A DNA stretch of 64,000 bases from Candidatus Rubrimentiphilum sp. (GTDB lineage: Bacteria > Vulcanimicrobiota > Vulcanimicrobiia > Vulcanimicrobiales > Vulcanimicrobiaceae): positions 122,742 through 186,741 of the forward strand of contig DASUIF010000003.1 of the NCBI GenBank assembly GCA_036273135.1, read 5' to 3'. Shown here piece after piece: positions 5,825 through 50,382 of the stretch. Every line of letters begins with the position of its first letter. Positions within the stretch are counted from its first letter, which is position 1. Position numbers and translations under genes: made by a program. The notes below the pieces were generated by a model. It did not search any database, was not told the DNA's origin, and saw nothing but the letters and a program-made list of their open reading frames with translations.

Positions 5825-6031
5825 ATGGCATATCCTGATGGCATGAAGGTGCTGCTCGAGATCTTAATCGCGATAATCCTGCATCCGGTTGCATGGATAT
5901 TGGTCTTGATCGATCTTGCCGGCCGCGACGATCTAACGACGGCGCAGAAATTCATCTGGGGCGTTTTTTCGATCCTCTGGGGAATCGGGCCGATTCTCTA
6001 CATCCTCGTGGGTGGAGGCAGCCTCTGGTAA
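5825..6031 (+). CDS. Small membrane protein, PLD-nuclease-N-terminal (PLDc_N)-like
   Basis: 68 aa, two TM helices, KFIWGVFSILWGIGPILYILVGG signature. The true start may be the ATG at 5843 (MKVLLEIL). Confidence 0.55.
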   Translation: MAYPDGMKVLLEILIAIILHPVAWILVLIDLAGRDDLTTAQKFIWGVFSILWGIGPILYILVGGGSLW

Positions 6032-6256
6032 CTAGGTAACCGGCCCTCGCAGGTCAGCGATCATCCTGCACATCTCGATCGCGTAAAACTCGAAAGCCTT
6101 CACCCGAAGGTGCGTTTCGGGCAAGTTTCTTCCGATCATTTCCTGGAGCAATCGCTCGCACTCGGCGTCAAAGGGCATCGGGCGATCCGAAGCCGCGTAG
6201 GTCTTCGCATATGCCTTCATCTCGTCCCAGAGCGCGAACGTCGAGTTCATCATCAT
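6032..6256 (-). CDS. Hypothetical protein (74 aa)
   Basis: ORF with balanced composition, divergent from the MCO-ZIP gene. No recognisable motif. Confidence 0.3.
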   Translation of the reverse strand: MMMNSTFALWDEMKAYAKTYAASDRPMPFDAECERLLQEMIGRNLPETHLRVKAFEFYAIEMCRMIADLRGPVT

Positions 6257-6272
6257 AAATGCAACGGGGCAT

Positions 6273-6288
6273 CTTTCTGCTCAGAAAG
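6273..6288. promoter_or_regulatory. 16-bp palindrome CTTTCTG-CT-CAGAAAG in a divergent intergenic region (candidate operator)
   Basis: Read directly. 7+2+7 perfect inverted repeat between the starts at 6256 (-) and 6331 (+). Confidence 0.3.
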
Positions 6289-6330
6289 CAGTCAAAGATA
6301 GTCGTACCCGGATAAACTTCTATTCATCCG

Positions 6331-8259
6331 GTGCCCGAAATAAATGAGGCAAAGCCTCATCCCCTGAACAAATTAGGCGTGCCGAATTCGATCGTCAGGC
6401 GAGGCTTATTCGCCTTAGTGCTGCTCTTAGGGGTCCTCAGCGTAGGCCCGGCCTGGGCGGACACCGACGAGACGACGCCCGGCGTCGATCCGGCCGCGGT
6501 CGGCATGCAGCCTCTGCGCGGAGCTATCCCCGCCGCGACCCCTTACCCGGGCGAATCCAGGTTGAGCCGCCGCGAGGACGGGACGTTCGCAGCCGTTGCG
6601 CAATCCAGCGGCCGCACGCGGACCTTTCACCTGGTGGAGCGCGATGCCCCGTGGACGCTGCAGCCCGGGCTGACGGTGATGGCCAAGACCTATAACGGCG
6701 TCGTCCCCGGGCCGACGCTGGTCGTACGTCAAGGCGATCGCGTCGTTATCGATTACCGCAACGAACAGAGCGTTCCCGACACGCTGCATCTGCACGGCAT
6801 CCACGAGATTCCCGTGAGCATGGACGGCGTGGCGGGCATTTCGCAGCCGCTCGTCATGCAAGGCCTATCTTACCGATACGTTTTCACCGCGGATACGCCC
6901 GGCACGTTCATCTATCACTCTCACGACAACGAGGAGATGGTTAACAGCGGTCTCTATGGCGCGATCGTCGTCTTACCGGCCCATCCCTCAGGTGCGGAAC
7001 GATCGGATCGCGACGACGTCGAGGTGCTGTCGTCGTGGGCGATCCAAAGTCTGAGCGAAAATCATTTCACGATCAACGGAAAAGAGTATCCGTACACGGC
7101 GCCTATCGAGGTGCGCAAAGGGCAGCGCGTTCGCGTTCGCTGGATCAACGTTTCGGGCGAAAGCATGCACACGATGCATACGCACGGACATTATCAGCGT
7201 ATCGTCGCACGCGACGCGCAGCCGGTCACGTACCAAGATATCGAGGATACGGTTTTCTTGGGGCCGGGAGAGCGCGTGGACGTCATTATCCAAGCCAATC
7301 AAATGCCCGGAACGTGGGTCGTGCACTGTCACGTGCTCGACCACGCCGAAGACGGTTCGGGCTTGCCCGACGGCCTCATTACCGCAATTCATTATGAGGG
7401 TACGCCATATACCGGCGCGGCCATGAACAAAGCCATGCGCGCGATGCTGCCGTCGTTCGGCCATCCGCGCAGCGGTCTCTCATTCGGAATGACCGTGCTG
7501 TTGGGCGCGATCGCGGGACTCACGATATTTTTCGGATTGCCGGTCGCGCGAATGCGCAACGTTTCGCCTTCGGTGATGGCCGCCCTCAATGCGCTGGCGA
7601 TCGGGATCCTCGTCTACTTAGTTGTGGAGATCGCCGGAAGTGCGACGGCGCCGCTCGTCCAGGCCGCGCGCTTCTGGCATGGCGGCGGTGCGCCTCTAGG
7701 AGTCATTTCCCTCGCGATCGCCTATGTGGGCGGCCTCTTTGCCGGGCTCGTCGGCTTGGGCTTCGTTGCCAACAAACTCAGCAGCCGCGCCGCGTCGTCG
7801 GTTCACCAGCCGCTGGTGCTGGCAGCGGTCATCGCGATCGGCATCGGCGCGCATAACTTTGCCGAGGGCCTGGCTATCGGCGCTTCGGCCGCAAGCGGCG
7901 CGACCGCGATCGCGATCGGGTTGATCGTCGGATTCGCGCTTCACAACGCGACGGAAGGTTTCGGAATCGCCGCGCCGCTTGCAGGGCGGGTGATTCCGTC
8001 TTGGCCGCAGCTCGGCTTGGCCGGGCTCGTCGCCGGCGGTCCGACGTTCCTGGGTACCGTTGTCGGCTACACGTTTCAATCGCCGATCCTTTCCGTGTTG
8101 TTCTTGGCGACGGCGATCGGTGCGCTCGTTTTCGTCATCGGAGAGATTTGGGCGGTGCTCAGGCGCAACTTGGGCATCACGCCGCTGGTTACATCGATGC
8201 TCGCGTGCGGATTTTTGATCGCGCTGACGACCGAGCTGTTCTTGGATTTAAGCGGATAA
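6331..8259 (+). CDS. Fusion protein: multicopper oxidase (cupredoxin) domain + ZIP-family metal permease domain
   Basis: 642 aa continuous ORF. The N-terminal half carries the copper-ligand motifs HLHGIH, YHSHDN, HTMHTHGH and HCHVLDHAEDG. The C-terminal half is polytopic with the ZIP/ZupT-like motifs HNFAEGLAIG and HNATEGFGIA. Confidence 0.75.
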   Translation: MPEINEAKPHPLNKLGVPNSIVRRGLFALVLLLGVLSVGPAWADTDETTPGVDPAAVGMQPLRGAIPAATPYPGESRLSRREDGTFAAVAQSSGRTRTFHLVERDAPWTLQPGLTVMAKTYNGVVPGPTLVVRQGDRVVIDYRNEQSVPDTLHLHGIHEIPVSMDGVAGISQPLVMQGLSYRYVFTADTPGTFIYHSHDNEEMVNSGLYGAIVVLPAHPSGAERSDRDDVEVLSSWAIQSLSENHFTINGKEYPYTAPIEVRKGQRVRVRWINVSGESMHTMHTHGHYQRIVARDAQPVTYQDIEDTVFLGPGERVDVIIQANQMPGTWVVHCHVLDHAEDGSGLPDGLITAIHYEGTPYTGAAMNKAMRAMLPSFGHPRSGLSFGMTVLLGAIAGLTIFFGLPVARMRNVSPSVMAALNALAIGILVYLVVEIAGSATAPLVQAARFWHGGGAPLGVISLAIAYVGGLFAGLVGLGFVANKLSSRAASSVHQPLVLAAVIAIGIGAHNFAEGLAIGASAASGATAIAIGLIVGFALHNATEGFGIAAPLAGRVIPSWPQLGLAGLVAGGPTFLGTVVGYTFQSPILSVLFLATAIGALVFVIGEIWAVLRRNLGITPLVTSMLACGFLIALTTELFLDLSG

Positions 8260-8260
8260 C

Positions 8261-9178
8261 GTGACGGCCCGCGCGCAATTCCCCGGCGAGCAAAGCGGCG
8301 GCGAGTTTCAGCGCCAGGGCGATGCTTTCCGCGAGCCGATTGCGGGAGAAGCCGGGCGTTATCATCTCTATATTTCGTGGGCGTGTCCTTGGGCTTCACG
8401 CACGATCATCGCGCGCAAGCTGAAGGGCCTCGAGGACGCGATCGGCATGAGCGCCGTCGATCCGATCCGCGACGAACGCGGCTGGGCGTTCCGGGACGGT
8501 CCCGGATACTCGCGTGACCCGATCAACGGCTTTTCGTTTTTGAGCGAAGCCTATGCCGCCGCCGATCCGCAGTACCGCGGACGTGTGACGGTGCCGGCGC
8601 TTTGGGACAAGCATACCGGAAGGATCGTCAATAATTCCGACGACGACATCATGCGCGCATTCGAAACGCAGTTCGAAGCATTTGCAACAAAACACGTCGA
8701 TCTCTATCCCGCGGCACACCGCGACGAGATCGACGCGCTCAACGAGCTCATCTACGAAACGGTCAATAACGGCGTCTACCGCGCGGGCTTTGCGACGTCG
8801 CAAGAATCTTATGAAAGGGCGGCATACGGCGTCTTTGAGACGCTCGACCGTTTAGAAGAGCGCTTGGCGCACCGCCGGTATTTGATCGCCGGGCATCCTG
8901 TGGAGACCGACTGGAAGCTGTTCGTGACGCTGATCCGTTTTGACGCGGTCTACTTCGGCCATTTCAAATGCAACCTGCGCCGCATCGTCGACTATCCTCA
9001 CCTTTGGGGCTATCTGCGCGATCTCTATCAGATGGACGGCATTGCCGAAACCGTGAATTTCGACCACATTAAACGTCACTATTACGTGACGCACGATGAG
9101 ATCAATCCCACGCGGATCGTTCCGATCGGACCGACCCTCGATCTCTTGGCGCCCTCGGGCCGCGAGAAACTCACCTAA
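8261..9178 (+). CDS. yqjG: Glutathionyl-hydroquinone reductase (Xi-class GST, YqjG/ECM4 family)
   Basis: 305 aa. Motifs: YHLYISWACPWASRT (CPWA catalytic motif), GRVTVPALWDK, VNNGVYRAGFATSQESY, HFKCNLRRI, GIAETVNFDHIKRHYY. Starts 1 nt after the stop of the MCO-ZIP gene. Confidence 0.9.
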   Translation: MTARAQFPGEQSGGEFQRQGDAFREPIAGEAGRYHLYISWACPWASRTIIARKLKGLEDAIGMSAVDPIRDERGWAFRDGPGYSRDPINGFSFLSEAYAAADPQYRGRVTVPALWDKHTGRIVNNSDDDIMRAFETQFEAFATKHVDLYPAAHRDEIDALNELIYETVNNGVYRAGFATSQESYERAAYGVFETLDRLEERLAHRRYLIAGHPVETDWKLFVTLIRFDAVYFGHFKCNLRRIVDYPHLWGYLRDLYQMDGIAETVNFDHIKRHYYVTHDEINPTRIVPIGPTLDLLAPSGREKLT

Positions 9179-9878
9179 GAATCCCGAGCGCCGGAAAGCT
9201 GACGTTTTGCAGAACGAGCGTGCTCGAAAAAGCGCCATCCCTTGAATTGGGCGCCGGTTGCCAATTGGCGTCGATCTCGGATATCCACCACACCGCCTGC
9301 GGGCCGTACGGTTTGAAAGAATAGTCGATTGTCGCGCTCCAACCGCCGGGGTTTTCCGCGTACGTCAGCTTGCGAACCTGGAACGTCGTACGATCGACCC
9401 AGAGCGCGCGCAGCGGATACTGATTGGGAGCGTTGAGCGGCCGCAAGAGCAAGTGATAGACGGCCGAGTCGTCGAGTTGCTCTTCGCCCGCGAGCGTGAC
9501 GTCGTAATGCGCGGCCCGTACCTGTGCGATGACGGGGAGTTTGGAAGGCGCAAACGGATCGGGCTGCGCGCTGCCCGGATAGACCGACGAAATGTTGAAA
9601 CCGAGCGGAGAATATGCCGGGCCTTCGCAGTTGGGACCTCGGCTCGTTTTTGGTTGATCCAGTCCTTGGTCGATCTCCACGGTCGCGCACCAATGATCGA
9701 ACGTGCGCAGCACGACGTGTTCGTTTCCGCGGGTGATGGCGCCGGCTGCGTCGCGGTGCGTGATCGCCGTGTCGAAAGCAACGTACGGGGGAAGCGCGCG
9801 AGCCTCCCAGGCGTCTTCGGCGTGAAAGAAGATCTGAAGCGGCGTGAGAACCGCGGCGAACATCGCGGCCGGCAGCAT
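9171..9878 (-). CDS. Hypothetical exported protein (possibly LolA-like fold)
   Basis: 235 aa with a hydrophobic N-terminus and beta-rich composition. No diagnostic motif. Confidence 0.45.
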   Translation of the reverse strand: MLPAAMFAAVLTPLQIFFHAEDAWEARALPPYVAFDTAITHRDAAGAITRGNEHVVLRTFDHWCATVEIDQGLDQPKTSRGPNCEGPAYSPLGFNISSVYPGSAQPDPFAPSKLPVIAQVRAAHYDVTLAGEEQLDDSAVYHLLLRPLNAPNQYPLRALWVDRTTFQVRKLTYAENPGGWSATIDYSFKPYGPQAVWWISEIDANWQPAPNSRDGAFSSTLVLQNVSFPALGILR

Positions 9879-34180: not shown

Positions 34181-37051
34181 ATGGGGGCCGGTCTAAAGAC
34201 TGCTGGACTAGAGATCCGGCGCGATGTTCTCCTTGACCGGCTCGAGAAGGCCCGGCCGAAGATTCTCGCGCTCCTGGCGCCGGCAGGCTTCGGGAAATCG
34301 ACGCTCGCGCGTCAGCTGCTCGCAGGCAAGACGAATGCCGCCGTCTGCGACGCTTCCGGCGTCTCGGGAGATCTCGAACTCGCCCGCAGGCTGATTCCGG
34401 CCCTGGCCGCGGAGAACCCGCGGCGTACGCAGACACTCACGCAGCGCGAACTCATGATGGGTGACGCCGGCACCGCTGTTGCGGATCGCGTGAACCTCGC
34501 TCTTGAAGCATGGAAAGAACCGATCGAAGATTCGACCTTCGTTTTTGAAAACGCCGAGCATTTGGCGCGCGATGCCGCGGCGCGCGAATTTTTCAGCCGG
34601 CTGCTTGCGCAGCGTCCGCCCGGCCGCGACGTCGTCATCTGTTCGCGCGAGAACCTTCGCGTACACCTGACGAGATTTGCGCCGCCTCACGAAATTTTGA
34701 CACTGCGTGCCGAAGATTTGGCCTTCGATCGATCCGAGCTGAACGAGCTCTTCGGATCGTACGGCGAGCGGCCGGGATTCCTCGCGCGCATCATGCAGCT
34801 CTCTCAAGGCTGGCCGATTGCAGTCTTCTTGCTCCGGCGGTTTGCAAGTGAAGGCCGGATCGATAGCTTGCTCGAGAGCCTGAACGACGTCGCCTTCGAA
34901 GAGCTGCACGACTATCTCGCCGATCAAGTTCTGGCATCGCTCGATCCGCGGCTGGTCGATGCACTATTTGCGTGCGCGTGCATCCCGAACGCCCGCGCCG
35001 CGGACCTGCGCGCCGCACTTCCCGAAGAGCGGGCCGTCGCGGCGCTTGTGGATTTCGCAAAAAGTTCGCCGTTCATCACGCGTTCCGACGAGACGTTCGT
35101 GCTGCATCCATTACTGAGCTCGTTGCTGACGGAGCGCCGCGGCGAAGAGCGTGCCGATCTGCTGGCGCGCGTCGCCGGCGCTCATACGCAGGCTCAGCGT
35201 TATCAGCGCGCCGCCGAGCTTCACTTGGCGCGGGACGATCAAGAAGCGGCGGCGGACGTCCTGGCGCGCCACGAAGTCATCCGCGACCGGGCGCCCTCGA
35301 TGGAATACGCGCGCGTCTTAGCATCCCTCGATCACTCGCTGGTTCAACGGTATCCGCGGCTTTGGGCGGTGACGGCGATGCTGCGCATGTTCTGCATCGA
35401 TTGCGAAGAGCTGCTCGACGAGGCCGAATCGCTTTGGCGTACGCTTTCACCGGAGGTCAGTGCTCCCGAACGCGGTTACGTCATGCTGTTCCGCATCATG
35501 CTGATGAGCTACATCGGCTTGATCGAGGACGCCGAAACGATGCTCGGCCAGTTTCTTTCCGGCCGGCGCAGTCCGGTGCAAAGCAAGGATTACGTCGATG
35601 CGTATCTGGGCTATGTTTTGGGCGTCATGCGCTCGCGCGTGGGCCGGCTCGAGCAGGCCGAACGCGATCTCACGATCGCGCTTCCGAAAATCGGCAGCAC
35701 CGACATTGCCGGCTCCGGCGCACTGCTGACGCTGGGCGCCGACATCGCCCGCGTACGCGGCGAGTTCGCGGTCGCCCGGCAGTTCGTCGATCGCGCGCTG
35801 GAGGGCGCGCGCCGCTCGGGTCTGTGGAACTTCATTGCTTTCGACCTGGCCGAAGCGTGTTTCGGGGCATGGTTTGCCGGCGACGATGCGGCATTTGTTC
35901 GCTACGGCATCGAACTCGACGAAGTCGTGCACCGGAATGGCGTGCGCTGCCTGGCATTCTTCGCCGCGGCTGCGCGCGGGCGCACCGAGCAGCCCGCTGA
36001 TGCCGACCTGCTAAAATTCGTGGCTTGCGGACAAATGATTGCGGCGGCCGCCTCGCACGACCGCAGAACGGCCGTCCGTCACGCGCGGGCCGCCGTTACC
36101 GCCGCGCAGCAGCTACGCTCGCCATTTACGCTCTGCTTAGCGTTCTTAACGCTCGCGGTGTACGACGACGCAAGCGCCTCCGATTATTTTGTGGGCGCGG
36201 TTGAAGCCGCGGCGCGATGCGAATCGCCGCCGCTGAACAATGCCGTGCGCGCCGTTGCGGAAGGCCGCGCGGACTATGGAATGCTCAATCCGTTCATGAT
36301 GCGTCTTCAACACGAACGAACCGGAGCTGCGCCATCGCTGGAAGTGTTGCTCACGGCCGGCGTGGTGCGGACCGCCGGGCAAGAAATGGCGCTCTCGGAA
36401 CGAGAGTTTGCATTGCTGGCGGCGCTTTCAATCCGCCGCGAAACCGTTCCGCGAGCGCGCTTGACCGATCTGTTGTGGCCGGAGCTGGACGAGTCGTCGG
36501 GGCGTAACGCGCTCAGCGTCTGTCTTCATCGCTTGCGGCAGCACCTCAATATCGATCAAAGCGTCGTGCGCAAGAAAGACGGATACGCGTTGCACGACGA
36601 CGTGCGCGTCGATCTTTGGGAGATCGATCGCGCCGTGACGGCACTGCGGTCGCGCGCCGCGCTGGCCGACGCCGAACGCGCACTCCTTTCCGAGGTCTAC
36701 GAACAGTTACGGCGCAAGCGGCCGGAGCGGATGCTGCGGTGGGACTGGTTCGAGCCGACCGAGCGGCATATTCGAGAACTGCGGCTGGAAGTGGCGCACC
36801 GGCTTGCCGCCGACGCGCTGAGTCACGGGCAAGTGCACCGTGCGCTCGAGCTGGCCGAAGAAATGATCGGCTACGACCCCTGCGACGAGGCCGGACGCGA
36901 ACTCGCCATCACGGCACATTTGCGCCGCGGAGATCGCGCCGCCGCGATGCGGCAGTACCGGCAATACCGCGATACGCTGCTCGCGGAATTGCAATGCGAG
37001 CCGTCTGACGAGATCAAGCAACTTGTCGGCCTTGCGCAACACACGGCGTGA
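34181..37051 (+). CDS. STAND-type ATPase regulator: MalT-like N-terminal NTPase + helical-repeat sensor + C-terminal OmpR-type wHTH and BTAD (SARP-like) domains
   Basis: 956 aa. Walker A LLAPAGFGKST, Walker B-like FVFENAEH, MalT-like GWPIAVFLL. C-terminus LSEREFALLAALSIRRETVPRARLTDLLWPE...LSVCLHRLRQHL (wHTH). This is followed by BTAD-like ...HRALELAEEMIGYDPCDEAGRELAITAHLRRGDRAAAMRQYRQYRDTLLAELQCEPSDE. Confidence 0.8.
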   Translation: MGAGLKTAGLEIRRDVLLDRLEKARPKILALLAPAGFGKSTLARQLLAGKTNAAVCDASGVSGDLELARRLIPALAAENPRRTQTLTQRELMMGDAGTAVADRVNLALEAWKEPIEDSTFVFENAEHLARDAAAREFFSRLLAQRPPGRDVVICSRENLRVHLTRFAPPHEILTLRAEDLAFDRSELNELFGSYGERPGFLARIMQLSQGWPIAVFLLRRFASEGRIDSLLESLNDVAFEELHDYLADQVLASLDPRLVDALFACACIPNARAADLRAALPEERAVAALVDFAKSSPFITRSDETFVLHPLLSSLLTERRGEERADLLARVAGAHTQAQRYQRAAELHLARDDQEAAADVLARHEVIRDRAPSMEYARVLASLDHSLVQRYPRLWAVTAMLRMFCIDCEELLDEAESLWRTLSPEVSAPERGYVMLFRIMLMSYIGLIEDAETMLGQFLSGRRSPVQSKDYVDAYLGYVLGVMRSRVGRLEQAERDLTIALPKIGSTDIAGSGALLTLGADIARVRGEFAVARQFVDRALEGARRSGLWNFIAFDLAEACFGAWFAGDDAAFVRYGIELDEVVHRNGVRCLAFFAAAARGRTEQPADADLLKFVACGQMIAAAASHDRRTAVRHARAAVTAAQQLRSPFTLCLAFLTLAVYDDASASDYFVGAVEAAARCESPPLNNAVRAVAEGRADYGMLNPFMMRLQHERTGAAPSLEVLLTAGVVRTAGQEMALSEREFALLAALSIRRETVPRARLTDLLWPELDESSGRNALSVCLHRLRQHLNIDQSVVRKKDGYALHDDVRVDLWEIDRAVTALRSRAALADAERALLSEVYEQLRRKRPERMLRWDWFEPTERHIRELRLEVAHRLAADALSHGQVHRALELAEEMIGYDPCDEAGRELAITAHLRRGDRAAAMRQYRQYRDTLLAELQCEPSDEIKQLVGLAQHTA

Positions 37052-47716: not shown

Positions 47717-48166
47717 ATGGAGTACATGATCGGCGCGGGAGCCATTCTGGAGACGGGCGAGGCGGCCAAAGTCACGGCAGCAATGCTTCATGCCCGTGTA
47801 GACCCCATGCTGGCTCGGTCGGTCAAGGCCGCGGCCGTGGATTTTGATGGGAACTCCCCGGACACGCTGCGCCGGCTCCTGGTCCTGGTCCCCGGCTGGA
47901 ATGCCGGCCGATTTCGTTCTCGCGTGACCCATCCGCTTATCGAGCGCGGCACGTGCTCCCTGGCCGACGTACTCAGCATGCTTGCCGTTGCTGCTCAAGC
48001 GCCCGAAATCCACCTCTTCGCGCACTGGCTTCCCGATGATGCGACCTGCGCGGCCTTGGCCAAACGTGGGATCGGACTGGTCGTCCATCCATTGGAAGCC
48101 ATCGAATCCGCGGCGCTCGTCGCCGGCCAGCGGCACACGCGGTGGAAGGCGGCCCGGGCAGCCTAG
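47717..48166 (+). CDS. Hypothetical protein
   Basis: The plus-strand ORF has normal composition, whereas the overlapping minus ORF (47630-48205) is Gly/Arg-rich. The ATG at 47717 lies just past the terminator. No motif recognised. Confidence 0.4.
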   Translation: MEYMIGAGAILETGEAAKVTAAMLHARVDPMLARSVKAAAVDFDGNSPDTLRRLLVLVPGWNAGRFRSRVTHPLIERGTCSLADVLSMLAVAAQAPEIHLFAHWLPDDATCAALAKRGIGLVVHPLEAIESAALVAGQRHTRWKAARAA

Positions 48167-48207
48167 TTCAGCCATCTCTAAGGGTGAGCACCCACCATCA
48201 GTCATAC

Positions 48208-48891
48208 ATGCCCGATATGCAACCGGCTCGCATCGCGGTGGTCGACGACGACCGTTTCGTCCGCGAGATGCTCGAACTCGGCCTCTCCCGTGAGGGCTTC
48301 ATCGTAAGAACTGCAGCCGACGGCGCCGCCGCGCTTCAGCTCGTGCGTGAGTGGGTGCCCGAAGCCATCGTGCTCGACGTCATGATGCCGAAGATCGACG
48401 GACTGGCGCTATTGCCCAAGCTCCGCGAAATCACGCAGTGTCCGATCTTGATGCTGACCGCCAAGGGCGAAACCGCGGACAAGGTCGCCACGCTCGGCGC
48501 CGGCGCCGACGACTATTTGGTCAAGCCGTTCATTTTTGAAGAGCTGATCGCGCGGCTGCAAGCGAAGTTGCGGCGGCCGCAGTTGATTGAAGAACAAGTC
48601 TTGCGCTGGCACGACGTCGCGATTAACCCCGATACGCGCGAAGCATGGCACGGCCGCGACGCGCTCGATCTGACGCAGCGGGAATTCGATTTGCTAGCGG
48701 TATTCATGCGCGAGCCGCGGCGTGTCTTTAGTAAGGATCACTTGCTCGAACTCGTCTGGGGTCATGACTTCGAAGGCGGTCCGAATATCGTCGAAACCTA
48801 TATTTCATACCTGCGCGCGAAAATCGACCGGCCGGATCAAGGTTCGTTCTTTCGTACGGTGCGCGGCGTCGGCTACGGCCTGGCGCAATAA
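48208..48891 (+). CDS. OmpR-family response regulator
   Basis: RIAVVDDD...LDVMMPKIDG...LTAKG...GADDYLVKPF receiver domain, plus C-terminal wHTH LTQREFDLLAVFM...VRGVGYGL. Start at ATG 48208 or 48217, not 48142. Confidence 0.9.
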   Translation: MPDMQPARIAVVDDDRFVREMLELGLSREGFIVRTAADGAAALQLVREWVPEAIVLDVMMPKIDGLALLPKLREITQCPILMLTAKGETADKVATLGAGADDYLVKPFIFEELIARLQAKLRRPQLIEEQVLRWHDVAINPDTREAWHGRDALDLTQREFDLLAVFMREPRRVFSKDHLLELVWGHDFEGGPNIVETYISYLRAKIDRPDQGSFFRTVRGVGYGLAQ

Positions 48892-50382
48892 GTGATGAGA
48901 AGTTCGCTGGCTTCCCGTTTAGCGGGCCTTTACACGCTGCTGCTGGGGATAACCGTATTTCTGGTTATCGTCGCGTCTTCGATCGCGCTTATTTACGAAC
49001 TGACCGGGTTTAGCCGCGATATCATCGTCGCCAAACACGACGAAGCGCGCGGCCTGGCCGAACAGTATCGGATGCAAGGCGTGAGTTTAAGTAAGGCTGC
49101 GCCCGCGCTCGCGCGCGAACTGAGCGGCATCGGTTTACAGGTGGCGGTCTTCGACGAAAAAGGGAAATATTTGGCAGGCGATCGGAATTTACGCCCGCCG
49201 CTGCTCGCGCGCGTGCTCAGCGGCCAGATAGAGATGACGCAGCCGTCAGAATCGCGGACCAGGGGTTTGGGTCCTTTCCCGATCGCGCTTCCCACGGGGC
49301 GCACGGAGATGACGATTCGTCGCGGAACGGACTTCAGCGGCCCGGTCCGCGGTCGGGAATTCCGGTACTTAATAGGCGTCGTTGGCGGATTTGTGGCGTT
49401 TATGCCGTCGCCCTGGATCATTTTTGCAAATCTTGGGCCGTATTGGCTGATCATTGTCTCGATAGGCATCGTTGCGATCTTGCTCTCGTGGTTTATCGGC
49501 CGCGTCTTTTCGCGTCACGCGCTCGCGCCGTTGACCGAAGTCACGGGCTCGCTGCAGGCGCTTGCACTCGGAGACTACACGCAGCGTAGGTTTATCGCAG
49601 CCGGCGGCGACGAGATCGCGCAGTTGACCGAAGCCTACAATGATGCGGCCGCCAGCGTTGCAAGCGCGATGGACGAGCGAAAGCATACCGAAGCCCGCAT
49701 GCGCCAGTTTGTGGCCGACGCCGGTCACGAGCTGCGCACGCCATTGACCGTTATCGCAGGTTACATAGACGTTCTGCGCCGCGGCGCGATCGAAGAGCCG
49801 AAGGTCGCCAAGCAGATCCTGGCAACGATGGCGCTCGAAAAAGAACATATGCGCGGCTTGATCGATCGTTTGATGCGATTGGCGCGCATGGATGCCGAGG
49901 CGCCGCCCGAGCCGATGCCGATCGACGTCCGCGAGTTCTTGCGCGATCAATCCGATGCCGCACGCAGGCTCGATGAAGCGCGGCATATCGACTACAGCGT
50001 CGAGGGCGTCACCGAGATCTTTGCGGATCGGGGCGAACTGGGCGAAGCGTTTTGGAACATCCTTGAAAACGCTCTAAAATACGCGCCGGAAGCTCCCGTG
50101 CACTTGCGCGCGACCGTCGAAGGTGACGAAGTCGTGCTGACCGTCAGCGATCAGGGCCCCGGAATGACCGAGGGCGAGCGGCTCCATGCGTTCGAGCGTT
50201 TCTACCGCGGTGACGCGCGCGGCGAAATGCCGGGCACCGGCCTGGGCCTAGCGATTGCCAAACGGGCGGTCGATCGTGCCGGGGGCACGATTCGCATCGA
50301 CAGCGCGCCCGGGCACGGAACAACTGTAACTATCCGTCTTCCTCAGGTATTTCCCAAGGGTGAAGTGGTAAAAGAATCTTGA
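48892..50382 (+). CDS. Sensor histidine kinase (two TM, periplasmic loop, HAMP, HisKA, HATPase_c)
   Basis: 496 aa. H-box ADAGHELRTPLT, N-box NILENALKYAP, G-boxes SDQGPGM and GTGLGLAI. Start abuts the response regulator stop. Confidence 0.9.
   Translation: MMRSSLASRLAGLYTLLLGITVFLVIVASSIALIYELTGFSRDIIVAKHDEARGLAEQYRMQGVSLSKAAPALARELSGIGLQVAVFDEKGKYLAGDRNLRPPLLARVLSGQIEMTQPSESRTRGLGPFPIALPTGRTEMTIRRGTDFSGPVRGREFRYLIGVVGGFVAFMPSPWIIFANLGPYWLIIVSIGIVAILLSWFIGRVFSRHALAPLTEVTGSLQALALGDYTQRRFIAAGGDEIAQLTEAYNDAAASVASAMDERKHTEARMRQFVADAGHELRTPLTVIAGYIDVLRRGAIEEPKVAKQILATMALEKEHMRGLIDRLMRLARMDAEAPPEPMPIDVREFLRDQSDAARRLDEARHIDYSVEGVTEIFADRGELGEAFWNILENALKYAPEAPVHLRATVEGDEVVLTVSDQGPGMTEGERLHAFERFYRGDARGEMPGTGLGLAIAKRAVDRAGGTIRIDSAPGHGTTVTIRLPQVFPKGEVVKES

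What the first reader, a model, noticed from the sequence alone, without database searches (positions are those of the whole stretch)
6331..8259. Single-polypeptide fusion of a multicopper oxidase and a ZIP metal permease, cotranscribed with a glutathionyl-hydroquinone reductase
Seen in the sequence:
- One uninterrupted 642-aa ORF.
- Residues about 1-45 form a signal/TM segment.
- Residues about 60-370 contain the full set of MCO copper-ligand motifs: HLHGIH, YHSHDN, HTMHTHGH, HCHVLDHAEDG.
- From about residue 385 the protein is polytopic, with two ZIP/ZupT-type metal-site motifs: HNFAEGLAIG and HNATEGFGIA.
- yqjG starts 1 nt after its stop.
- A 16-bp palindrome (6273-6288) sits in the upstream divergent region.

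Established: oxidase-permease coupling is known as separate proteins, such as yeast Fet3p ferroxidase with the Ftr1p permease. ZIP proteins move divalent cations.

Inference: a covalently coupled periplasmic oxidase and ZIP channel would be a compact metal oxidation/transport device for Fe, Mn or Cu. I do not know of a characterised example, though I cannot exclude that such fusions are already annotated in databases.
Basis: partly seen in the sequence, partly recalled or inferred. Interest (0 to 1): 0.65.

Follow-up and report, generated by a model that had tools for sequence, protein, structure and literature searches.

The report
Copper oxidase fused to ZIP importer
A soil bacterium of the phylum Eremiobacterota makes one protein that joins a secreted copper-dependent oxidase to a ZIP metal-import channel. 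The gene sits under the binding site of an iron/manganese-sensing (DtxR-type) repressor, so it is probably an unstudied oxidase-assisted system for taking up iron (or manganese).

Summary
One open frame (6331-8259) encodes a signal peptide, a complete two-domain multicopper oxidase (MCO) and a complete 8-helix ZIP permease. All 11 copper ligands and both ZIP HNxxEG motifs are invariant in relatives.

Corrections:
- The real start is GTG 6379, giving 626 aa.
- Export is by Sec, not Tat.
- The 6273-6288 palindrome belongs to the divergent 74-aa ORF.
- The yqjG linkage is lineage-specific.

The fusion is not an assembly artefact. Four independent studies' contigs cross the junction, and about half of 301 sampled Eremiobacterota genomes carry it.

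New here is a palindrome, TTAGG-N4-CCTAA, that overlaps the start codon (6373-6386).
- In a sister family (14/14 genomes) it precedes a DtxR-family repressor gene sitting directly upstream of the fusion.
- In other soil bacteria it lies between divergent dtxR and stand-alone ZIP genes.
- In related genera it also precedes a Cyc2-like cytochrome-porin gene.

Best reading: a DtxR-repressed, oxidase-coupled ZIP importer, most likely for iron; manganese is the main rival. It resembles Fet3p-Ftr1p in logic only. No characterised example was found. It is a new variant of a known kind.

The parts
6373..6386 (.). Operator-like palindrome TTAGGCGTGCCGAA (TTAGG-N4-CCTAA type with one mismatch). Its central GTG (6379) is the start codon.
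   Evidence: The site sits at the same place in 24/24 close orthologous loci. It is an exact TTAGG-N4-CCTAA in 13/16 genomes of the 60-68% clade. It lies before the dtxR-MCO-ZIP gene pair in 14/14 family-f3 genomes. It lies between divergent dtxR and ZIP genes in other soil bacteria. The exact 14-mer is unique in the window's own genome.
6345..6359 (.). TGAGG-N5-CCTCA inverted repeat (core of ATGAGGCAAAGCCTCAT). It may be a degenerate second operator copy or a 5'-UTR hairpin.
   Evidence: The repeat is seen directly in the sequence. In the 60-68% clade a second copy, AGG-N4-CCTA, lies about 22 bp upstream of the main site. In the window the spacing is about 27 bp, so the assignment is uncertain.
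6379..8259 (+). MCO-ZIP fusion gene with the corrected start (626 aa).
6379..6459 (+). Sec-type signal peptide (MPNSIVRRGLFALVLLLGVLSVGPAWA), probably cleaved before the conserved DTDETT.
   Evidence: The alignment shows a hydrophobic core and a conserved AxA|D(T/A)D site. The RR pair is replaced by RL, RK, RC or WL in relatives. The structure model gives a helix at residues 20-37.
6613..6990 (+). MCO cupredoxin domain 1, with HLH (153-155) and HSH (196-198). There is no cysteine here, so no T1 copper site in this domain.
7003..7410 (+). MCO cupredoxin domain 2, with HTMHTH (280-285) and HCHVLDH (332-338). This domain holds the T1 copper site (H280, C333, H338).
7414..7446 (+). Short amphipathic linker helix AAMNKAMRAML. 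M365 is invariant and M369 nearly invariant.
7477..8256 (+). ZIP permease of eight helices. TM4 carries H508-N509-x-x-E512 and TM5 carries H538-N539-x-x-E542.
8261..9178 (+). yqjG-like Xi-class GST / glutathionyl-hydroquinone reductase (CPWA motif). It is probably co-transcribed in this genome, but the linkage is lineage-specific.
6273..6288 (.). It belongs to the divergent 74-aa ORF (6032-6256, minus strand) and is not part of the MCO-ZIP unit.
   Evidence: The element is only partly conserved. It stays next to the 74-aa ORF in L009, L010 and L013, and in L013 it lies about 440 nt from the MCO-ZIP start.

Best explanation
SHOWN:
- The gene encodes a Sec-exported two-domain multicopper oxidase. 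The T1 copper is in domain 2, and the eight histidines of the trinuclear cluster are split between the two domains.
- A roughly 20-residue linker joins the oxidase to the periplasmic N-terminus of a ZupT/BbZIP-like ZIP permease.
- It is the only ZIP in the genome.
- The fusion is conserved across the class Eremiobacteria.
- A TTAGG-N4-CCTAA palindrome overlaps its start codon. The same palindrome precedes a dtxR-MCO-ZIP gene pair in a sister family.

INFERRED:
- The genome's single DtxR-family repressor binds this site when its metal is plentiful. The protein would then be made only under iron (less likely manganese) shortage.
- Like other two-domain MCOs, the oxidase would have to trimerise to build its oxygen-reducing copper cluster. 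That would place three ZIP pores under one oxidase cap.
- The oxidase takes an electron from the incoming metal, most likely Fe(II), right at the pore mouth. The ion is then handed on without release to the bulk. This gives iron-specific, high-affinity uptake in the manner of yeast Fet3p-Ftr1p, but built on a ZIP.
- In related genera a Cyc2-like outer-membrane cytochrome-porin under the same operator would serve the outer-membrane step.
For: Architecture and conservation:
- Domain calls and structure matches: (AF2 pLDDT 89.5, pTM 0.72).
- The gene is real. Contigs from four independent studies cross the junction. Full-length homologues run in the hundreds. About 150 full-length places were printed among 301 sampled genomes of the phylum.
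- Opposite-order ZIP-MCO fusions (P0126, P0130) and a ZIP-cupredoxin fusion (P0259) show recurrent, independent coupling.

Regulation:
- The operator is at the start codon in 24/24 close loci and is exact in 13/16 more distant loci.
- In 14/14 family-f3 genomes a gene with Fe_dep_repress, Fe_dep_repr_C and FeoA domains ends roughly 10-20 nt before the MCO-ZIP start where read exactly (3 loci). The operator (at most 1 mismatch in 13 of 14, 2 mismatches in one) precedes that gene.
- Exact operators lie between divergent dtxR and stand-alone ZIP genes in soil metagenomes.
- A reversed ZIP-MCO fusion also has a 1-mismatch site 38 nt upstream.

Iron rather than manganese or copper:
- All parsed Eremiobacterial regulators keep the DtxR/IdeR Cys102-x-x-Glu105-His106. 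The f3 regulators also keep Met10 (14/14).
- Regulators next to MCO-less ZIPs have Glu, Asp or Ala at position 102.
- In 6 of 8 related genomes the same doubled operator precedes a monohaem CxxCH + 16-strand porin protein, which is the Cyc2 architecture.
- There is no Fur box upstream of the fusion, although the genome's fur gene has a textbook one.
Against: - No experiment exists; neither oxidase substrate nor transported ion is known.
- ZIPs are known to carry divalent ions. Close stand-alone relatives of this ZIP work without any oxidase, so oxidising Fe(II) to Fe(III) could destroy the substrate rather than create it.
- Many regulators beside those stand-alone ZIPs are MntR-like (Glu/Glu or Glu/Asp), which hints that the ZIP clade's ancestral cargo is Mn(II).
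- The window's own regulator has Glu, not Met, at the Met10 position.
- The window's operator has a degenerate right arm, and no other site was found in its genome.
- The own genome has only distant paralogues (24-29% identity) of the Cyc2-like protein, and none carries the operator.
- The T1 axial position is unresolved. The canonical position is Ser343 and is variable in the family. Position 345 is Leu here and Met in most relatives.
- The trimer and the docking over the pore were not modelled.
Confidence: 0.45

Rival explanations
1. It is a manganese importer. The ZIP carries Mn(II) and the system is switched on by Mn shortage. The oxidase either removes competing Fe(II) at the pore mouth (a ferroxidase 'filter') or conditions Mn itself.
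For: - 23 of 64 stand-alone ZIP relatives have an adjacent DtxR-family gene.
- 9 of the 21 of those regulators that were parsed carry acidic residues at both selectivity positions (Glu/Glu or Glu/Asp). This is the MntR-type pattern by my own knowledge of B. subtilis MntR D8/E99.
- The three loci with Glu/Glu regulators have exact operators.
- The f1 regulators, including the window's own, have Glu at the Met10 position.
Against: - Every Eremiobacterial regulator keeps Cys102, and the f3 regulators also keep Met10.
- The genome already has two Nramp (MntH-type) transporters.
- The co-regulated Cyc2-like cytochrome-porin is an iron-associated architecture.
Confidence: 0.22
2. It is an anchored laccase. 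The MCO oxidises phenolic or humic ligands, or Fe/Mn-chelating catechols, of peat and litter at the cell surface. This frees a divalent metal for the ZIP. The quinones produced are detoxified by the downstream glutathionyl-hydroquinone reductase.
For: - The closest solved structures are two-domain laccases: 2zwn at 6e-48 and 3g5w at 5e-42.
- There is no axial Met at the canonical position in this protein.
- yqjG with a CPWA motif follows after 1 nt, and about two thirds of the related loci keep it within about 1.8 kb.
- The organism comes from soil and leaf-litter metagenomes.
Against: - yqjG is missing next to the gene in the 60-68% clade.
- No substrate-pocket evidence was obtained.
- Covalent fusion, arising independently in both domain orders, argues for a hand-over of the metal itself.
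Confidence: 0.12
3. It is a copper uptake system, as proposed for the MCO1 + ZIP gene pair of ammonia-oxidising archaea. The MCO oxidises Cu(I) to Cu(II), which the ZIP imports.
For: - The published hypothesis for Nitrososphaera viennensis rests on up-regulation of MCO1 and the adjacent ZIP under Cu limitation (PMC7785015).
- The linker helix has a conserved M365-x3-M369. An MxxxM spacing is typical of Cu(I) sites (my own knowledge).
Against: - The regulator is of the DtxR family, which is not known to sense copper.
- Making a four-copper enzyme in order to acquire copper is paradoxical.
- No cop or cus genes, and no CsoR/CueR-type sites, were seen nearby.
Confidence: 0.08
4. It is an assembly or annotation artefact, or a decaying gene: two genes wrongly joined.
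For: None found. One orthologue (L032) shows a frameshift.
Against: - Contigs from four independent studies are identical or near-identical across the junction, with no indels.
- The same architecture appears in hundreds of proteins from independent assemblies.
- All catalytic residues are invariant.
Confidence: 0.01

Closest known systems
Yeast Fet3p-Ftr1p (and algal FOX1-FTR1) ferroxidase-permease complexes
   Same: Both combine an extracytoplasmic multicopper oxidase physically coupled to a membrane permease, are iron-starvation-controlled, and have a presumed direct hand-over of the ion. The Fet3p structure 1zpu is among the fold matches.
   Different: - Here the two parts are one polypeptide.
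- The oxidase is a two-domain (presumably trimeric) MCO, not a three-domain one.
- The permease is a ZIP, not an FTR1/OFeT protein with REXXE motifs. ZIPs are known for divalent ions, not Fe(III).
MCO1 + adjacent ZIP permease gene pair of ammonia-oxidising archaea (Reyes et al. 2020, PMC7785015; Kerou et al. 2016 as cited there)
   Same: A two-domain MCO is genetically linked to a ZIP permease. A Fet3p-like oxidase-then-permease model has been proposed, and it too is experimentally unvalidated.
   Different: - The archaeal system is two separate genes, and the proposed cargo is copper.
- Here the parts are fused and sit under a DtxR-type operator, which points to Fe or Mn.
- Orthology between the archaeal and Eremiobacterial parts was not tested here.
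Two-domain multicopper oxidases: mgLAC (2zwn), Nitrosomonas europaea blue copper oxidase (3g5w), SLAC-type small laccases
   Same: The fold is the same (Foldseek E 2e-26, TM 0.78 on the target, 37% identity). The same eight histidines of the trinuclear cluster are split over two cupredoxin domains.
   Different: - 2zwn and 3g5w have the T1 cysteine in domain 1 (HCH) and HDH in domain 2.
- This protein has HSH in domain 1 and HCH in domain 2, the SLAC-like 'type B' layout.
- None of the solved enzymes carries a membrane transporter.
BbZIP / E. coli ZupT (GufA-type bacterial ZIPs)
   Same: It has eight helices and HNxxE motifs in TM4 and TM5. The profile match to 5tsa is 2.8e-12 over residues 59-307 of that chain, and it matches the NCBIfam ZupT model.
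   Different: - TM5 has H-N where BbZIP has Q-D.
- The BbZIP E240 position is Thr572.
- An N-terminal oxidase of about 340 residues is attached.
- The gene is under DtxR-type control rather than the usual zinc (Zur) control.
DtxR/IdeR iron boxes and MntR boxes
   Same: TTAGG-N4-CCTAA equals the first 14 nt of the 19-bp iron-box consensus TTAGGTTAGCCTAACCTAA (my own knowledge). It is doubled at roughly two-helical-turn spacing, overlaps the start or promoter region, and precedes the regulator's own gene in family f3.
   Different: The palindrome is 14 bp, not 19 bp. Binding has not been shown. The metal sensed is unknown, because the primary-site residues are mixed (Glu or Met at position 10, Cys at 102).

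Membership tests
Multicopper oxidase, two-domain class (2dMCO) | Two cupredoxin domains only (about 300 aa) | tested here: met
   Pfam finds Cu-oxidase_3 at 109-216 and Cu-oxidase_2 at 244-343, with no third domain. The best structure matches are 2dMCOs 2zwn and 3g5w.
Multicopper oxidase, two-domain class (2dMCO) | Four HxH motifs giving eight histidine ligands of the trinuclear T2/T3 cluster | tested here: met
   H153/H155, H196/H198, H283/H285 and H332/H334 are invariant in 22 homologues.
Multicopper oxidase, two-domain class (2dMCO) | T1 blue-copper site (His, Cys, His) and its axial residue | tested here: inconclusive
   H280, C333 and H338 are invariant and lie in domain 2. Domain 1 has Ser197 in place of Cys. 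The axial residue is unresolved: the canonical H+5 position is Ser343 and varies in the family, while position 345 is Leu here and Met in most relatives.
Multicopper oxidase, two-domain class (2dMCO) | Homotrimer with the trinuclear cluster at subunit interfaces; oxidase activity | not testable with these tools
   Only a monomer was modelled.
ZIP (SLC39 / ZupT; Pfam PF02535) | Significant match to the family model | tested here: met
   The single sequence scores 33.5 bits against a 35.1 cut-off, and 35.2 bits when summed in frame. All 22 members of alignment A3 hit Zip, with a best E of 1.4e-14. The profile against BbZIP 5tsa gives 2.8e-12.
ZIP (SLC39 / ZupT; Pfam PF02535) | Eight transmembrane helices with both termini outside | tested here: met
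   The AF2 model has eight long helices between residues 385 and 640. An exported N-terminal domain and reversed C-terminal fusions both fit termini facing outward.
ZIP (SLC39 / ZupT; Pfam PF02535) | Metal-site motifs in TM4 (HNxxD/E) and TM5 (H/Q-N/D-xx-E) | tested here: met
   H508-N509-E512 and H538-N539-E542 are invariant and align to BbZIP H177-N178-E181 and Q207-D208-E211.
Fet3p-Ftr1p type oxidase-permease iron uptake | Permease of the FTR1/OFeT family with REXXE motifs | tested here: not met
   The membrane part is a ZIP. The protein is therefore not a member, only an analogue in logic.
Fet3p-Ftr1p type oxidase-permease iron uptake | Ferroxidase activity, with an acidic Fe(II) site near T1 | not tested
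   Conserved D337, E340 and D341 flank the T1 His338, but their geometry could not be examined.
DtxR/IdeR/MntR regulon member | Operator resembling the family's box at the promoter or start, linked to a DtxR-family gene | tested here: met
   TTAGG-N4-CCTAA lies at the start codon. It lies upstream of the dtxR-MCO-ZIP gene pair in 14/14 f3 genomes. It also lies between divergent dtxR and ZIP genes.
DtxR/IdeR/MntR regulon member | Metal-dependent binding of the regulator, with repression | not testable with these tools
   This needs EMSA or footprinting and expression data. The candidate RNA runs were uninformative.

The most novel reading that the evidence does not exclude
A class-wide bacterial oxidase-permease in which a ZIP accepts an ion that has just been oxidised by its own fused, trimeric multicopper oxidase: Fe(III), or Mn(III). 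This would be convergent with Fet3p-Ftr1p. It would be the first ZIP shown to work with an oxidase and possibly with a trivalent ion. It would work together with a co-regulated Cyc2-like outer-membrane cytochrome-porin as a two-membrane redox uptake route. It would also recast the long-puzzling archaeal MCO+ZIP gene pairs as Fe/Mn systems rather than Cu systems.
Probability: 0.2. Interest if true: 0.85.

Novelty: new variant of a known kind. Interest (0 to 1): 0.64.

Why it matters
- Oxidase-coupled metal uptake is textbook only for Fet3p-Ftr1p-type systems. A ZIP-based version has been suggested for archaeal gene pairs but never tested.
- A natural covalent fusion, arising independently in both domain orders, is strong 'Rosetta-stone' evidence that the two activities act together physically.
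- The fusion offers a single-gene construct for biochemistry and cryo-EM.
- The DtxR-type control found here argues that the cargo is iron or manganese, not copper. That bears directly on how the abundant MCO+ZIP pairs of ammonia-oxidising archaea are read.
- It also raises a structural question: how an obligately trimeric oxidase is combined with ZIPs, which are known as dimers.
- It adds a candidate metal-acquisition trait to Eremiobacterota, a widespread and nearly uncultured soil phylum.

Tried and rejected
- **Tat export.** The RR at residues 23-24 is not conserved; relatives have RL, RK, RC or WL. Rejected in favour of Sec.
- **ORF start at 6331.** Rejected, because orthologues have stop codons 2-3 codons before the conserved GTG or ATG.
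- **The 6273-6288 palindrome as regulator of this gene.** Rejected, because it stays with the 74-aa ORF.
- **A Fur box upstream.** GGATAAACTTCTATTCATCC matches the Fur consensus poorly and is not conserved. The genome's real Fur box sits before fur.
- **A riboswitch or known RNA.** Rfam at E<=1 found nothing in 6000-6600.
- **A sigma-70 promoter.** None was found.
- **TTAGGC as a general translation signal.** A genome-wide count was not convincing.
- **A wider regulon in the own genome.** Only 16 sites with at most 1 mismatch were found, fewer than the control pattern, and none made sense apart from this gene.
- **Conserved gene partners.** Apart from dtxR in family f3, none is conserved in the surveyed clades.
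- **Stand-alone ZIP relatives next to MCO genes.** Not seen in 2 loci, nor in 64 metagenome loci. All 16 metagenome loci with an MCO were fusions.
- **Transcript evidence.** The candidate RNA runs gave only sparse contig fragments of unknown library type.
- **Fold match of the ZIP half.** The whole-model search was swamped by MCO hits. A sequence-profile search replaced it.
- **Pfam and NCBIfam on the Cyc2-like protein.** No hits.
Full report
**1. The observation**

The plus-strand ORF 6331-8259 (642 codons, GTG start) is open throughout.
- Pfam finds Cu-oxidase_3 (109-216, 1.4e-31), Cu-oxidase_2 (244-343, 9e-24) and Zip (488-601, 3.5e-8).
- NCBIfam adds CopA-, laccase- and nitrite-reductase-type MCO models and ZupT (387-599).
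- The real start is very probably GTG 6379. Every orthologue with a definable N-terminus starts at the equivalent GTG or ATG (MPN/MPK...). In several, a stop codon lies only two or three codons upstream. The protein is therefore 626 aa.

**2. Anatomy**

- *Signal peptide.* Residues 17-43 are a signal peptide ending AWA, followed by the conserved DTDETT. The RR pair is not conserved (RL, RK, RC or WL elsewhere), so export by Sec is more likely than by Tat.
- *Oxidase.* Residues about 95-360 form a two-domain multicopper oxidase.
  - The best solved relatives are the two-domain laccase mgLAC (2zwn, 6e-48) and the Nitrosomonas enzyme (3g5w, 5e-42).
  - Foldseek on the model agrees (E 2e-26, TM 0.78 on the target).
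  - Those two enzymes have HCH in domain 1 and HDH in domain 2. This protein has HSH in domain 1 and HCH in domain 2, so the T1 copper lies in domain 2, the SLAC-like layout.
  - H153, H155, H196, H198, H280, H283, H285, H332, C333, H334 and H338 are invariant in 22 homologues of 44-92% identity.
  - The axial residue is unresolved. The canonical H+5 position is Ser343 and varies across the family (S, T, A, N, Q, M). Position 345 is Leu here and Met in most relatives.
- *Linker.* A short helix (362-372, AAMNKAMRAML; M365 invariant) leads into the membrane part.
- *Permease.* Eight long helices span residues 385-640 (pLDDT 89.5, pTM 0.72).
  - H508-N509-x-x-E512 and H538-N539-x-x-E542 are invariant. 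They align with the TM4 and TM5 metal-site residues of BbZIP.
  - A profile of this ZIP clade hits BbZIP 5tsa at 2.8e-12 over the whole transporter.
- *Topology and assembly.* By established knowledge, ZIP N- and C-termini face outward, so an exported N-terminal oxidase is topologically sound. Also by established knowledge, two-domain MCOs build their trinuclear cluster between subunits of a homotrimer. That implies a 3:3 oxidase-ZIP assembly. This is an inference and was not modelled.

**3. It is a real gene**

- Contigs from four independent studies cover 6200-8400 with no indels. Two of them are identical over the whole stretch.
- 977 of the 8000 scored database candidates matched at E <= 0.001. 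All 120 listed are near-full-length and of similar size, and 113 of them carry the same four Pfam domains. The named ones come from Candidatus Baltobacteraceae and Eremiobacterota.
- Thirty species-level genomes have it.
- In a sample of 301 genomes of the phylum, 187 had a hit at E <= 1e-20. About 150 full-length places were printed, in the window's own family (f1), a second family of the order (f2) and a sister family of the class (f3, 47-50% identity). Other classes gave only MCO-level hits.
- It is the only ZIP in this 2.4-Mb genome.
- At the 50% cluster level there are also fusions in the opposite order, ZIP-MCO (P0126, P0130), and a ZIP-cupredoxin fusion (P0259). The coupling has therefore arisen more than once.

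*The palindrome.*
- The six bases before the start codon, TTAGGC, are invariant in all 24 close loci. With the start codon and the next two codons they form TTAGGCGTGCCGAA (6373-6386).
- In the 60-68% identity clade the same place holds an exact palindrome, TTAGG-N4-CCTAA, in 13 of 16 genomes, usually 0-2 nt before an ATG. A second copy lies about 22 bp upstream.
- The exact site is also present in deep-branching f1 genomes and in f2.
- The 14-mer is unique in the window's genome.

*Link to a DtxR-family regulator.*
- In family f3, all 14 genomes examined have a gene with Fe_dep_repress, Fe_dep_repr_C and FeoA domains immediately upstream on the same strand. In the three loci read exactly it ends 10-21 nt before the MCO-ZIP start. 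The palindrome precedes that regulator gene, with at most one mismatch in 13 of the 14 genomes and two mismatches in one, plus an upstream partial copy.
- Among 80 metagenome loci encoding relatives of the ZIP domain, 16 were MCO-ZIP fusions.
- Of the 64 stand-alone ZIPs, 23 had a DtxR-family gene beside them, nearly all divergently transcribed. Three of these (L126, L135, L152) have the exact palindrome in the intergenic gap.
- A reversed ZIP-MCO fusion has a one-mismatch site 38 nt upstream.
- I conclude, with about 85% confidence, that the palindrome is the operator of a DtxR-family repressor. It equals the first 14 nt of the classical 19-bp iron box (my own knowledge).
- The window's genome has a single such regulator (C8:4592-5254). 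It is 41% identical to the f3 protein, and its best-named solved relative is IdeR (8.5e-31).

*Which metal.*
- At the positions that distinguish Fe-sensing DtxR/IdeR (Met10, Cys102) from Mn-sensing MntR (Asp8, Glu99; my own knowledge), the f3 regulators are Met/Cys in 14 of 14.
- The f1 regulators are Glu/Cys in 25 of 26 parsed.
- Regulators next to MCO-less ZIPs are Glu/Glu, Glu/Asp, His/Ala and similar.

*A second target.*
- Scanning eight related genomes for the palindrome gave one to three sites each.
- Besides the MCO-ZIP gene, six of the eight have it, again doubled, before a 371-aa secreted protein. That protein has a PLFAHQYGVxCxKCH haem motif followed by 16 beta strands.
- Its model (pLDDT 62.6, so moderate) matches OmpF/OmpC porins. 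This is the architecture of the Cyc2 fused cytochrome-porin. Cyc2-like genes have been reported in Eremiobacterota MAGs (PMC8357290).
- The window's own genome has only distant paralogues (24-29% identity), and none has the operator.

*No Fur control.* There is no Fur box before the fusion, whereas the fur gene has a textbook one.

**5. Surroundings**

- yqjG (8261-9178) follows after one base and has the CPWA motif of Xi-class GSTs. No terminator-like site separates the two genes.
- Across relatives the linkage is not fixed. An F420_oxidored gene is inserted between them in the ~75% clade. An opposite-strand gene sits there in two close relatives. In the 60-68% clade yqjG is absent.
- The palindrome at 6273-6288 lies 17 nt from the start of the divergent 74-aa ORF (no Pfam hit). 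It is only partly conserved and stays with that ORF even when the ORF is 440 nt away from the MCO-ZIP gene.

**6. Mechanism**

*Shown:* an exported, complete oxidase covalently joined to a complete ZIP, conserved class-wide and placed under a DtxR-type operator.

*Inferred:* repression when metal is plentiful and induction under starvation, hence an uptake function.
- I favour iron at about 50%. The reasons are Cys102 (plus Met10) in the regulators, the Cyc2-like partner, and the logic that a covalent link is most useful when the product is unstable in solution. Fe(III) is such a product.
- The main difficulty is that ZIPs carry divalent ions and that stand-alone relatives of this ZIP need no oxidase.
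- Manganese is the chief rival, with the oxidase acting either on Mn or as a filter that removes competing Fe(II).
- A ligand-oxidising anchored laccase would give yqjG a role and is a lesser rival.
- The copper model from archaea is another lesser rival.

**7. Comparison and novelty**

- It works like Fet3p-Ftr1p but is not a member, because the permease is a ZIP, not FTR1.
- It is closest in gene content to the archaeal MCO1+ZIP pairs, for which a Cu(I) oxidation and uptake model was published without validation (PMC7785015).
- Five literature searches found no paper on an MCO-ZIP fusion or on DtxR control of such a system.
- Databases already list the proteins under generic names.
- Earlier notes of this scan describe orthologues in other genomes and suggested metal-repressor control. 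I treated them as leads and tested the point independently here.

**8. Limits**

- No binding, expression, activity or transport data exist.
- The trimer and its docking on the pore were not modelled.
- Orthology with the archaeal pairs was not tested.
- The window's operator has a degenerate right arm.

Noticed in passing
L070:1530-2645 (G073), also L069, L073, L074, L078, L079; own-genome paralogues at G000 C4:10249-11244, C25:88836-89456, C27:36175-36699: A family of about 371-aa secreted proteins has an N-terminal P-x-F-A-x-x-Y-x-x-x-C-x-x-C-H haem motif and a 16-strand porin-like barrel (Cyc2-like cytochrome-porin). All database homologues are 'hypothetical protein' with no Pfam domain. 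In 6 of 8 related genomes the gene is preceded by the same doubled TTAGG-N4-CCTAA operator as the MCO-ZIP gene.
   Followed up: partly
L126, L135, L152 and about 20 other metagenome loci among L122-L186: Stand-alone ZIPs 38-52% identical to the fusion's ZIP half often sit divergently next to a DtxR-family regulator, sometimes with the exact TTAGG-N4-CCTAA palindrome between the two genes. This looks like an undescribed DtxR/MntR-controlled ZIP clade in soil bacteria.
   Followed up: partly
P0126 (667 aa), P0130 (620 aa; L040:2046-3908), P0259 (593 aa): Opposite-order fusions exist (ZIP first, two-domain MCO or a single cupredoxin at the C-terminus), from unidentified organisms. L040 has a one-mismatch operator 38 nt upstream of the gene.
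   Followed up: partly
window 6032-6256 (-) and 6273-6288: A 74-aa ORF with no Pfam hit (MMMNSTFALWDEMKAYAKTY...) is conserved in three close relatives together with the partly conserved CTTTCTGC...GAAGCAG element just upstream of its start. Its function is unknown.
   Followed up: partly
L041:7937-8617 (and the ~75% identity clade generally): A gene of the F420_oxidored (NADP oxidoreductase) family is inserted between the MCO-ZIP gene and yqjG. That gives a run of three redox-related genes on one strand.
   Followed up: no
G000 C13:32571-32960 (-) and its upstream: The genome's single fur gene is preceded by a perfect Fur-box-like palindrome, GAATGATTT-TGC-AAATCATTC. This suggests autoregulation and gives a reference Fur box for this phylum.
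   Followed up: no
G295:C155:6700-8580 and 8645-9277: In one f1 genome a second, divergent DtxR-like gene (38% identical to the window genome's regulator) lies directly downstream of the MCO-ZIP gene.
   Followed up: no
G000 C27:33584-34852 (-), 36175-36699 (-), 48098-49507 (+): The window's genome has two further MCO-like genes on contig 27. One lies near a 598-aa cytochrome-porin paralogue that carries an extra C-terminal cytochrome c domain. This may be a separate metal-redox locus.
   Followed up: no
L032:7580-7605: One orthologue (a MAG from a long-read study) shows an apparent frameshift inside the ZIP half. It is probably a sequencing error, but it could be a pseudogene.
   Followed up: no
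window 6357, 6415, 6427, 6432: Strain-level single-base variants are seen in contigs from two other studies (X4, X7). One of them (6357 T>C) falls in the upstream TGAGG-N5-CCTCA repeat.
   Followed up: no
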